Shown here one piece after another: positions 42,001 through 43,461 of a stretch of 43,461 nt of DNA. The position numbers were made by a program. The DNA is taken from positions 1 to 43,461 of the IMG/VR virus record IMGVR_UViG_648276647_000004; one strand, given 5' to 3'. Position 1 is the first letter of the stretch. The number at the start of each line of letters is the position of its first letter. Origin of the DNA: a virus (taxonomy: Duplodnaviria > Heunggongvirae > Uroviricota > Caudoviricetes).

Positions 42001-43461
42001 TATCCACTCTGGCATTTTGTAGCGCACAGATGCCATGTAAACAAGGCCTCCAGCTAGCATCTCCCAGGCCCTTGTAGGGAGCAAGTAGAAGATATCCTCC
42101 CGCGTTCCCGTTACGCGCATGAGGGTAATGGTGAGCGATATGGTAAAAATCGCTGATAATGCCAACCCTACAGGAAGTCGTAATTTTTTAATTAGAATAA
42201 CCAGTAAAGGGTACAGAATGTAGAATTGCCACTCTGCTGATAGCGACCACGTGTGAAGCAGAAAATTTAATTCTGAGGAAGGGTCAAAGTAGCTAGAATG
42301 AATAGCATAATAATTATTTGAATAAAAAAGCAATGAAGCTATAGCATTTCTGCTGAGTCCCTCATATTCATTTGTACTTAAAGCAAACATTCCGAAAGCC
42401 ATCAGGGTGATGACTACTACCAACAAGGCAGGAACTATCCTCAGGAATCTGGCTATATAGAAATCAAGCACTCCTTTGTGATCTACACGCTCAAGCACGA
42501 TTCCTGTCATAAGAAAACCAGAAATCACAAAGAATACATCTACGCCAACAAATCCTCCTGATACGTAAGGAACGCCAAAGTGATAGAGGACAACGCTAAT
42601 CACTGCAAAGGCTCTCAAACCATTTATATCGAGCCTGAATTTTTTATAGGTCATTTTGTAACCATCATTCAAAAGCGCCAGAAATGGCGAAATTAAGATA
42701 ACGGATGATAGCCTTTTTTATAAAGGTCGTCATCCAGACATAACCAGTCATATCAACCACATCAAAGCAGATCACAAAAATCAGACGAAGAGGGACTTGA
42801 TCGACGCCACCGATCAATAATACTGCATGCATATACAGTAACTATCGAAGGTGCATCATGGGATTCCCATCGCCAGCGCAAGACTATGTAGAGCAACGCA
42901 TATCACTAGACCAGCGCATCATAACCAGGCCAGCGGCTACGTACTTCATGCGAGCCAGTGCGACGCACTACCGTGAAGGTATCCTGAGTGGTGCGCTTCT
43001 CGTTGTCGACGCATCGCTAACACCGTGTGACGGATCACTGCTTGTTTGCACTGACGAAGGTGAGTTCAGGATTAAGCGCTACCGGACGCACCCTCAGCCT
43101 CATCTGGAGAATCTGGAGAATGGCAAGCGAGAGAGGTTGCCGGATAAGAATGAAGCATCAGACACATCTCCTCCGGTGTTCGGGGTAATCACCTACATCA
43201 TCAACGATGCGCGTTCTGGTGAGTTTGATGATTGTCCGGTGATGTGATGGGGCATATATGGGGCAAAAAATTAGCGCAAGAAGACAAAAAATCACCTTGC
43301 GCTAATGCTCTGTTACAGGTCACTAATACTATCTAAGTAGTTGATTCATAGTGACTGGATATGTTGTGTTTTGTAGCATTATGTGGTCTATTTTTTAGAC
43401 TAAAGATATTGTAACACATTGATATTAATGGCTTTTAATGTTTCACGTTCAGCTTTTTATA

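What the first reader, a model, noticed from the sequence alone, without database searches (positions are those of the whole stretch)
42821..43247. SOS-controlled UmuD' mimic: pre-processed, nucleophile-less UmuD-like protein
The 129-aa product begins M-GFPSPAQDYVEQ, the sequence that follows the RecA-stimulated Cys24/Gly25 cleavage site of UmuD, so it is born as a UmuD'-like form. The catalytic GDSM serine block is replaced by ATHY while the downstream Lys (EFRIK) is kept. A near-consensus LexA box lies 18 bp upstream and no umuC follows. A phage may thus supply an already-activated UmuD' on SOS induction, potentially modulating host Pol V/RecA or the phage's own S24-family repressor.
Basis: partly seen in the sequence, partly recalled or inferred. 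Interest (0 to 1): 0.6.

Follow-up and report, generated by a model that had tools for sequence, protein, structure and literature searches.

The report
Prophage HumD, a ready-made UmuD'
This is an ordinary copy of humD, a phage gene known since 1999 that makes a ready-activated version of the bacterial mutagenesis protein UmuD' and is switched on by DNA damage.

Summary
ORF 42858-43247 (+) encodes 129 aa starting M-GFPSPA, exactly at the Gly that follows the UmuD Cys24/Gly25 cleavage site, and no in-frame upstream start exists. The GDSM serine block is gone (His37 or Thr36 at the Ser60 position, depending on alignment) and Lys73 (= UmuD Lys97) is kept. A LexA box (42821-42840, 17/20 to consensus) is the only such site in the window and ends 17 nt before the ATG. 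No umuC is present, because the prophage right end (sib/attR) follows.

It is not new. The protein scores 230 bits, full length, against NCBIfam NF051876 "HumD family" (cut-off 120). It is 70% identical to phage P1 HumD, whose GenBank record annotates the same LexA site and complementation of UmuD'. An identical protein is in RefSeq. Relatives occur in 543 viral contigs and in at least 567 of 5,426 complete E. coli genomes. In 78 of 81 related loci a LexA box precedes the gene or its two-gene operon. dN/dS is 0.04-0.14.

Most likely mechanism, by homology to P1 HumD: on SOS induction it supplies UmuD'-like dimers to host UmuC without the RecA-dependent cleavage delay.

One under-described feature is an invariant, disordered acidic C-terminal tail (EFDDCPVM) resembling the SSB tail. 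Interest is low.

The parts
42797..42824 (+). Putative humD promoter: -35-like TTGATC (42797-42802), 16-nt spacer, -10-like AATACT (42819-42824), which overlaps the first bases of the LexA box. It contains two GATC sites (42799-42802 and 42812-42815).
   Evidence: This was the joint-best hexamer pair in my own scan (8/12). The stricter built-in scan found no + strand promoter. Similarity to unrelated prophages begins at TTGATC, with unrelated sequence upstream, which marks the left edge of the mobile humD cassette. The promoter function is inferred, not shown.
42821..42840 (.). LexA (SOS) box TACTGCATGCATATACAGTA. Both the CTG and CAG triplets are intact, the right half is perfect, and the left half reads CTGC instead of CTGT.
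   Evidence: It is the only match at up to 3 mismatches in the window, and 0 of 100 shuffles gave any. A box sits in the equivalent position in P1 (annotated LexA site, 19 nt before the ATG), in N15 (14 nt) and in Enterobacter phage MII_001 (17 nt). In 78 of 81 related loci a box with at most 5 mismatches lies ahead of humD or its operon. LexA binding itself was not tested.
42847..42853 (+). Shine-Dalgarno-like GAAGGTG, 4 nt before the ATG.
   Evidence: Read directly from the sequence. It is conserved as GGAGGTG or GAAGGTG in related loci.
42858..43247 (+). humD: a 129-aa HumD-family protein (UmuD'-like S24 fold) with no N-terminal arm, no GDSM serine and a conserved Lys73. It ends in the family-specific acidic C-terminal tail NDARSGEFDDCPVM (residues 116-129).
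   Evidence: NCBIfam NF051876 scores 230.3 bits against a cut-off of 120, covering 1-129/129. Pfam Peptidase_S24 gives 31 bits. PDB UmuD' gives E 2e-20. The AF2 model has Foldseek top hits 1ay9 and 1umu, prob 1.0. It is 69.8% identical to P1/P7 HumD, 72% to N15 gp26 and 88% to HK140 gp28. dN/dS is 0.04-0.14.
43264..43461 (.). Lambda/HK97-type sib/tI hairpin (43271-43305) and the attP P-arm, running into the truncated attR core at the window end. This is the right end of the prophage and leaves no room for a umuC.
   Evidence: It is 95.5% identical to HK97 'sib retroregulation site / attachment site core'. The hairpin was read from the sequence. The matching attL core GCTTTTTTATACTAA is at 428-442. 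In E. coli SC407 the same gene is followed by ybhB and bioA.

Best explanation
The gene is humD, the phage/prophage version of UmuD'. It is carried here as a self-contained 'moron' cassette (promoter, LexA box, gene) at the extreme right end of a lambda-att-integrated prophage with a myovirus-type tail.

In the lysogen, host LexA is expected to sit on the box that overlaps the -10 region and start site and keep the gene off. DNA damage leads to RecA*-stimulated LexA cleavage and derepression.

The product needs no RecA-mediated self-cleavage, because translation starts at the Gly that normally becomes the UmuD' N-terminus. Consistent with that, its Ser-Lys protease site has decayed.

By homology with P1 HumD, it dimerises like UmuD'2, binds host UmuC and RecA filaments, and supplies the accessory subunit of a Pol V-type translesion polymerase. 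This skips the slow UmuD-to-UmuD' checkpoint, so lesion bypass on host or phage DNA can start earlier after SOS induction.

Shown here: the sequence features, family membership, fold, conservation of the LexA box and purifying selection. Inferred from P1 HumD: dimerisation, UmuC/RecA binding and promotion of mutagenesis. Inferred only: the benefit to the phage.
For: Family membership:
- NF051876 HumD equivalog, 230 bits against a cut-off of 120, end to end.
- 69.8% identity over 129/129 residues to P1/P7 HumD.

Published function of P1 HumD:
- The P1 record annotates HumD as 'DNA repair; functionally complements E. coli UmuD'' and annotates a LexA site before humD.
- Literature statements are, including the title of McLenigan et al. 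1999.

Fold:
- UmuD' structures are the best sequence hits and best structural hits.

Regulation:
- The LexA box is unique in the window.
- A box is positionally conserved in 78 of 81 loci.

Cassette nature:
- Homology to other prophages starts at the -35-like TTGATC.
- The same protein occurs in a sister prophage at the same att site without the neighbouring acyltransferase.

Selection and trait linkage:
- dN/dS is 0.04-0.14.
- Among 269 relatives, 119 combine a pre-processed start, no GxSM and an acidic tail. Another 35 combine an N-terminal arm, GxSM and no tail. None combines GxSM with the tail.
Against: - No experiment bears on this particular protein, which is 30% diverged from P1 HumD.
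- From my memory of the McLenigan 1999 abstract (paper not held), P1 HumD complemented UmuD' well only from a high-copy plasmid and is poorly expressed. Its natural role for a phage therefore remains an open question.
- The LexA box has a CTGC left half-site, a mismatch at a conserved position, so repression may be weak.
- The promoter hexamers are poor (8/12) and the built-in scan missed them.
- The invariant C-terminal tail has no counterpart in UmuD' and is not explained by a simple 'UmuD' substitute' model.
- Lys73 and a hydroxyl residue at position 36 are strongly conserved in close relatives (K 113/121; T/S 121/121). A fully dead protease site does not obviously require this.
Confidence: 0.8

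Rival explanations
1. HumD acts mainly as a modulator or antagonist of the SOS machinery rather than as a polymerase subunit. It would bind RecA* filaments in the groove used by LexA, UmuD and CI, or heterodimerise with host UmuD. That would tune RecA-dependent cleavage of LexA or of the prophage's own CI-like S24 repressor, or tune recombination, and so influence the timing of prophage induction.
For: The protein keeps the UmuD surface that docks on RecA. It aligns throughout with the UmuD chain solved on a RecA filament (8gmt). The prophage has an S24-type CI repressor at 10134-10841. The gene is solitary, without a umuC, in hundreds of phages. The conserved acidic tail suggests an extra binding partner.
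Against: The only experimental characterisation of a family member reports positive complementation of UmuD' function (annotation; title cited). No evidence here links HumD to repressor cleavage. LexA-repressed expression means the protein appears only after RecA* is already active.
Confidence: 0.12
2. The ORF is a decaying remnant of a umuDC operon: a truncated umuD that lost its 5' end, its serine and its umuC. It would have no function of its own.
For: The GDSM motif is lost. In more distant pre-processed relatives Lys97 is also lost. Seven close clusters carry K73M.
Against: dN/dS is 0.04-0.14. The length of 128-129 aa and the MGFPSPA start hold in 113 of 120 close clusters. The gene has its own SD, promoter block and LexA box, conserved across loci. 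It has gained a family-specific invariant C-terminal tail. Relatives are present in 543 viral contigs.
Confidence: 0.02
3. The protein retains proteolytic activity, using Thr36 (Ser in P1 HumD) and Lys73 as a dyad, and cleaves another S24 substrate in trans. Candidates are host UmuD, LexA or a phage repressor.
For: In the MAFFT register Thr36 sits on UmuD Ser60. Position 36 is T (100) or S (21) in all 121 close homologues, and Lys73 is K in 113. From general knowledge, UmuD cleavage is intermolecular.
Against: HMMER (posterior about 0.8) and hhalign place His37, not Thr36, on Ser60. The AF2 model has its short helix at 38-40, preceded by residue 37. That fits this register only if, as I recall but did not check, the S24 nucleophile precedes such a helix. 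The Gly and Asp of GDSM are not conserved. Distant pre-processed members lack both a hydroxyl and the Lys. K73M variants exist in otherwise close sequences.
Confidence: 0.05

Closest known systems
Bacteriophage P1 HumD (McLenigan et al. 1999, J Bacteriol 181:7005; NCBIfam NF051876 'HumD family translesion DNA polymerase')
   Same: It has the same length (129 aa), the same start at M-GFPSPA and the same one-residue-shorter, Ser-motif-less loop (P1 ADSHH, here SATHY). The conserved Lys and the C-terminal tail are also shared (...NDARSGEFDDCPV[MI]). A LexA box lies 17-19 nt before the ATG and there is no umuC. Identity is 69.8% over the full length.
   Different: Here the gene sits at the attR end of an integrated lambda-att prophage, beside an O-antigen-type acyltransferase. 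In P1 it sits next to lxr and phd-doc on a plasmid prophage. The residue at position 36 is Thr rather than Ser. The LexA box sequence differs (CTGC half-site). This copy has not been tested experimentally.
N15 gp26, phiKO2 gp23, HK639 and HK140 gp28 'UmuD-like' proteins of lambdoid and linear-plasmid phages
   Same: They belong to the same family at 68-88% identity and are solitary genes at the end of the tail-fibre/moron region or next to att. N15 has the LexA box 14 nt upstream.
   Different: In HK140 and about half of the IMG/VR loci, humD is the second gene of a two-gene operon behind a 79-aa protein of unknown function (phrog_3893), with the LexA box upstream of that gene. That companion gene is absent from this window.
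E. coli UmuD / UmuD' (Pol V accessory subunit; PDB 1UMU, 1AY9, 1I4V, 8GMT) and plasmid MucA/RumA/ImpA
   Same: They share the S24 beta-fold and the GFPSPAxDYVEQ arm sequence after the cleavage site. Lys97 and the FGVV C-terminal strand are also shared. Identity is 38% in the MAFFT alignment and 33-36% to UmuD' chains by Foldseek. Both are under LexA control.
   Different: This protein has no 24-residue N-terminal arm and no cleavage site, so no RecA-dependent activation step. GDSM is lost, and 10 extra acidic C-terminal residues are present. It is not in an operon with umuC. It scores below the NCBIfam UmuD cut-off (85.9 against 110).

Membership tests
HumD family (NCBIfam NF051876, equivalog) | Full-length match to the family HMM above the curated cut-off | tested here: met
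   230.3 bits against a cut-off of 120; residues 1-129 on profile positions 1-129.
HumD family (NCBIfam NF051876, equivalog) | UmuD'-sized protein whose translation starts at the Gly of the UmuD cleavage site, with no N-terminal arm | tested here: met
   M1-G2 aligns with UmuD G25. No in-frame upstream start exists. 113 of 120 close clusters start the same way.
HumD family (NCBIfam NF051876, equivalog) | S24 / UmuD' fold | tested here: met
   Pfam PF00717 gives 31.2 bits against a cut-off of 23.3. The AF2 model (pLDDT 75) has top Foldseek hits 1ay9 and 1umu, prob 1.0, TM 0.72-0.77 normalised on the target.
HumD family (NCBIfam NF051876, equivalog) | Solitary gene with no cognate umuC partner, carried on a phage or prophage | tested here: met
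   sib/attR follows the gene. The ORFs scanned in the window (most of those of 250 aa or more) are integrase, repressor, replication, packaging, tail and acyltransferase genes; three had no Pfam hit and none matched a Y-family polymerase family.
HumD family (NCBIfam NF051876, equivalog) | LexA operator in the promoter region (SOS control) | tested here: met
   At the sequence level the box at 42821-42840 is unique in the window and positionally conserved. Actual LexA binding and induction cannot be tested with these tools.
HumD family (NCBIfam NF051876, equivalog) | Functional complementation of UmuD', dimerisation, and binding to UmuC and RecA filaments | not testable with these tools
   This is known only for P1 HumD (annotation; paper title cited; the full text is not held).
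UmuD proper (Pol V autoproteolytic subunit, NCBIfam NF007621) | HMM score above the cut-off | tested here: not met
   85.9 bits against a cut-off of 110.
UmuD proper (Pol V autoproteolytic subunit, NCBIfam NF007621) | N-terminal arm with a Cys/Ala-Gly cleavage site, and a Ser-Lys catalytic dyad (GDSM ... K) | tested here: not met
   There is no arm. Ser60 is replaced by His37 (HMMER and hhalign) or by Thr36 (MAFFT). Only the Lys is retained.
UmuD proper (Pol V autoproteolytic subunit, NCBIfam NF007621) | Operon with umuC | tested here: not met
   attR follows the gene.
LexA / CI-type S24 repressors | N-terminal HTH DNA-binding domain fused to the S24 domain | tested here: not met
   Only the S24 domain is present. 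The TIGR00498 LexA model scores 22 bits against a cut-off of 111. Some RefSeq records name homologues 'LexA family transcriptional regulator'; that name does not fit this protein.

The most novel reading that the evidence does not exclude
The HumD family may be more than 'UmuD' without the arm'. Its invariant, disordered C-terminal tail (G-E-F-D-D-C-P-V-M-COOH here; EFDDTPF and EFHDNLPF in distant members) appears only in proteins that have lost both the N-terminal arm and the GxSM serine.

The tail resembles the SSB C-terminal docking peptide (DFDDDIPF). It could be an SSB-Ct-like linear motif that targets this ready-made UmuD' to SSB-client proteins or to ssDNA gaps, or that competes with SSB for them. 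That would give the phage protein a function host UmuD' lacks.
Probability: 0.1. Interest if true: 0.55.

Novelty: already known. Interest (0 to 1): 0.15.

Why it matters
Very little is new. The gene confirms that lambdoid prophages of E. coli commonly carry the P1-type humD cassette as a LexA-controlled moron next to the attachment site. At least about 10% of complete E. coli genomes have a humD-like gene.

Its practical relevance is that such prophages may shorten the delay before error-prone lesion bypass after DNA-damaging antibiotics. That could raise mutagenesis in lysogens. This idea comes from the P1 work and has not been tested for prophage copies.

Two modest open points remain: why phages need the protein at all, and what the family-specific acidic C-terminal tail does.

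Tried and rejected
- **McLenigan 1999 (PMC94175) and the P1 genome paper (PMC523184).** Neither is held. The functional claims for P1 HumD therefore rest on the GenBank annotation, on citing papers and on my memory of the abstract.
- **PMC4713147.** It has humD qPCR primers, but I found no text on humD induction.
- **The search for related loci with the divergent alignment A2.** The single-protein query worked.
- **Built-in promoter/terminator scan.** It found no + strand promoter for humD. My relaxed scan gives only an 8/12 candidate.
- **Register of the active-site loop.** I tried to settle it with MAFFT, HMMER, hhalign and AF2 secondary structure. Most evidence favours His37 = Ser60, but I had no access to model coordinates to measure the distance to Lys73, so Thr36 is not excluded.
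- **Alternative longer N-terminus.** Rejected. The few database homologues of 135-165 aa simply start at upstream in-frame codons and still contain an internal M-GFPSPA. This window has a stop 20 codons upstream and no start codon in between.
- **LexA box serving the divergent acyltransferase.** Considered unlikely. The only - strand promoter-like site lies at 42733-42705, about 90 bp from the box. A sister prophage has the humD cassette without that gene.
- **Companion ORF (phrog_3893) in the window.** Searched for and absent.
- **Literature search for SSB-Ct mimics.** I did not see HumD in the twelve titles and abstracts listed.

Full report
**What is there.** The window is essentially one integrated prophage.
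- Host sequence runs to about 427, and the lambda att core GCTTTTTTATACTAA with the P' arm is at 428-442.
- The integrase is at 516-1586 (-), and a CI-like HTH+S24 repressor is at 10134-10841 (-).
- O/DnaB-type replication genes, terminase, portal and a contractile-tail module (sheath at 29447-30937) follow, then baseplate and tail-fibre genes.
- A 615-aa AT3+SGNH acyltransferase lies on the minus strand at 40825-42672.
- The ORF of the finding is at 42858-43247 (+).
- A lambda/HK97-type sib hairpin and the attP P-arm then run to the end of the window (95.5% identical to HK97).

**Checking the observation.** The 129-aa ORF is real. It starts at the first possible start codon after an in-frame stop 20 codons upstream, so no N-terminal extension can be encoded.

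Its best solved relatives are UmuD' and UmuD (1umu E 2.3e-20), and residue 2 aligns with UmuD Gly25, the first residue of UmuD'.

The catalytic loop is one residue shorter than in UmuD. HMMER (posterior about 0.8) and a profile-profile alignment of 27 pre-processed relatives against 26 full-length UmuD relatives place A-T-H-Y on G-D-S60-M. MAFFT places S-A-T-H there instead. The AlphaFold model (pLDDT 75) has a short helix at 38-40, preceded by residue 37. This would fit the first register if, as I recall but could not check, the S24 nucleophile precedes such a helix. In either register this protein has no serine at the nucleophile position. Lys73 aligns with Lys97 in all alignments.

The LexA box TACTGCATGCATATACAGTA (42821-42840) is the only match to the 20-mer consensus at up to 3 mismatches in 43.5 kb. 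No match arose in 100 shuffles. The box ends 17 nt before the ATG. No ORF scanned with Pfam or PHROGs in the window matched a Y-family polymerase family.

**What it is.** The protein is a textbook member of the HumD family.
- NCBIfam NF051876 ('HumD family translesion DNA polymerase', equivalog) scores 230 bits against a cut-off of 120 and aligns 1-129 to 1-129. The UmuD model falls below its cut-off.
- PHROG 811 is 'UmuD-like protein'.
- Identity is 69.8% to P1/P7 HumD, 72% to N15 gp26, 68% to phiKO2 gp23, 74% to HK639 and 88% to HK140 gp28.
- The P1 GenBank record annotates humD as 'functionally complements E. coli UmuD'' and marks a LexA site 19 nt before its ATG.
- The literature describes HumD as the already-activated, shorter UmuD of phage P1 (PMC7092418) and as LexA-regulated (PMC9603915). 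The primary paper is McLenigan et al. 1999 (cited; not held).
- The Foldseek search of the model returns UmuD' structures first (prob 1.0).
- A protein with no amino-acid difference (dN = 0) is annotated in E. coli SC407 as WP_000506737.1. It sits at the same ybhB/bioA att site behind the same tail genes, but without the acyltransferase.

**How common and how constrained.** tblastn-confirmed relatives occur in 543 IMG/VR viral contigs, very often as the last gene of the predicted prophage. They also occur in at least 567 of 5,426 complete E. coli genomes, on chromosomes and on P1-like plasmids.

dN/dS against relatives is 0.04-0.14.

Similarity to other prophages begins at the -35-like TTGATC at 42797 and is unrelated upstream. 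The unit is therefore a mobile promoter-operator-gene cassette, a 'moron'.

Among 81 related loci, 42 have a LexA box (at most 5 mismatches) 14-43 nt before humD. Another 36 have one 254-287 nt upstream, ahead of a conserved 79-aa companion ORF (phrog_3893, function unknown) that forms a two-gene operon with humD. SOS control is thus a near-universal family trait.

**Family-level anatomy.** Three traits travel together across 269 relatives.
- 119 proteins combine a start at the cleavage-site Gly, loss of GxSM and an acidic C-terminal tail.
- 35 proteins combine an N-terminal arm of at least 15 residues, GxSM and no tail.
- No protein combines GxSM with the tail.

In the 121 closest sequences position 36 is always Thr or Ser, position 37 is mostly His or Tyr, and Lys73 is K in 113, M in 7 and R in 1. 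More distant pre-processed members lose the hydroxyl and the Lys altogether. This pattern fits a protease site released from selection once self-cleavage became unnecessary, with the remaining conservation being structural.

The tail ...NDARSGEFDDCPVM is almost invariant even though the preceding linker (residues 93-106) is highly variable. The model predicts the tail to be disordered.

**Most likely mechanism (confidence about 0.8).** LexA represses a weak promoter whose -10 overlaps the box. SOS induction derepresses it. The product, born in the UmuD' form, dimerises and joins host UmuC (and RecA) to give Pol V-type translesion synthesis without waiting for RecA-mediated UmuD cleavage.

The regulatory and structural elements are shown at the sequence level here. 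The protein-protein steps are inferred from P1 HumD. The benefit to the phage is not known.

Rivals:
- a RecA*/UmuD modulator that affects induction timing (0.12);
- a residual trans-acting Thr/Lys protease (0.05);
- a decaying operon remnant (0.02, contradicted by purifying selection and the conserved cassette).

**Comparison and novelty.** This is the same kind of gene as P1 humD, N15 gene 26 and the 'UmuD-like' genes of HK639 and phiKO2. It differs only in genomic setting and in minor sequence details (Thr36 instead of Ser, a CTGC half-site in the operator).

Interest is 0.15.

The only feature I could not find discussed in the papers I could search is the SSB-Ct-like C-terminal tail (the SSB-Ct motif DDDIPF is quoted in PMC5872125). 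I rate the idea that it is an SSB-type docking peptide at about 0.1 probability.

Noticed in passing
window 43203-43244 (residues 116-129 of the ORF): The family-specific C-terminal tail NDARSGEFDDCPVM is nearly invariant in 121 homologues while the upstream linker varies freely. AF2 predicts it to be disordered. It is found only in proteins that lack both the N-terminal arm and GxSM. It resembles the SSB C-terminal peptide DFDDDIPF, and distant members end in EFDDTPF or EFHDNLPF.
   Followed up: partly
L003:2262-2501 (HK140_027); L007, L010, L041 and others, immediately upstream of humD: In about half of the related loci humD is the second gene of an operon, behind a conserved 79-aa protein (MPR[KR]SDI...NRYWILRN; phrog_3893, unknown function, no Pfam hit). 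The LexA box lies upstream of that gene. One database protein (P0135) is a fusion of the two. The companion is absent from this window.
   Followed up: partly
window 40825-42672 (-): A 615-aa AT3 (Acyl_transf_3) + SGNH acyltransferase lies here, probably an OafA/Oac-like O-antigen acetyltransferase (my inference from the domain pair). It is absent from the otherwise matching prophage end of E. coli SC407, where the zinc-ribbon ORF is followed directly by humD. It therefore looks like a separately acquired serotype-conversion moron. Another E. coli strain also has an acyltransferase beside humD, next to intS/argW.
   Followed up: partly
window 42797-42815: Two GATC (Dam) sites sit in the putative humD promoter, one in the -35-like TTGATC and one in the spacer. 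The TTGATC...GATC arrangement recurs in the subset of loci with the 17-nt box-to-ATG spacing (11 of 80 by a strict pattern). A possible methylation effect on expression was not examined.
   Followed up: no
window 1-442 and 43449-43461: The window spans a whole prophage at the lambda attB site. attL (core plus lambda-like P' arm) is at 428-442. The right end stops inside the attR core, which reads GCTTTTTATA with five T where attL has six.
   Followed up: partly
window, whole: The bare pattern CTG-N10-CAG occurs 24 times against 10.8 expected from dinucleotide shuffles. Only the site at 42823-42838 has the AT-rich spacer and TA flanks of a LexA box. The excess is probably a codon-usage effect (CTG and CAG codons) and was not analysed further.
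   Followed up: no
window 40607-40912 (+): A small ORF has a weak TFIIB-type zinc-ribbon match (21.6 bits, just under the cut-off of 22). Its counterpart in E. coli SC407 is annotated as a 'zf-TFIIB domain-containing protein'. Here its 3' part overlaps the end of the inserted acyltransferase gene, so it may be altered.
   Followed up: no
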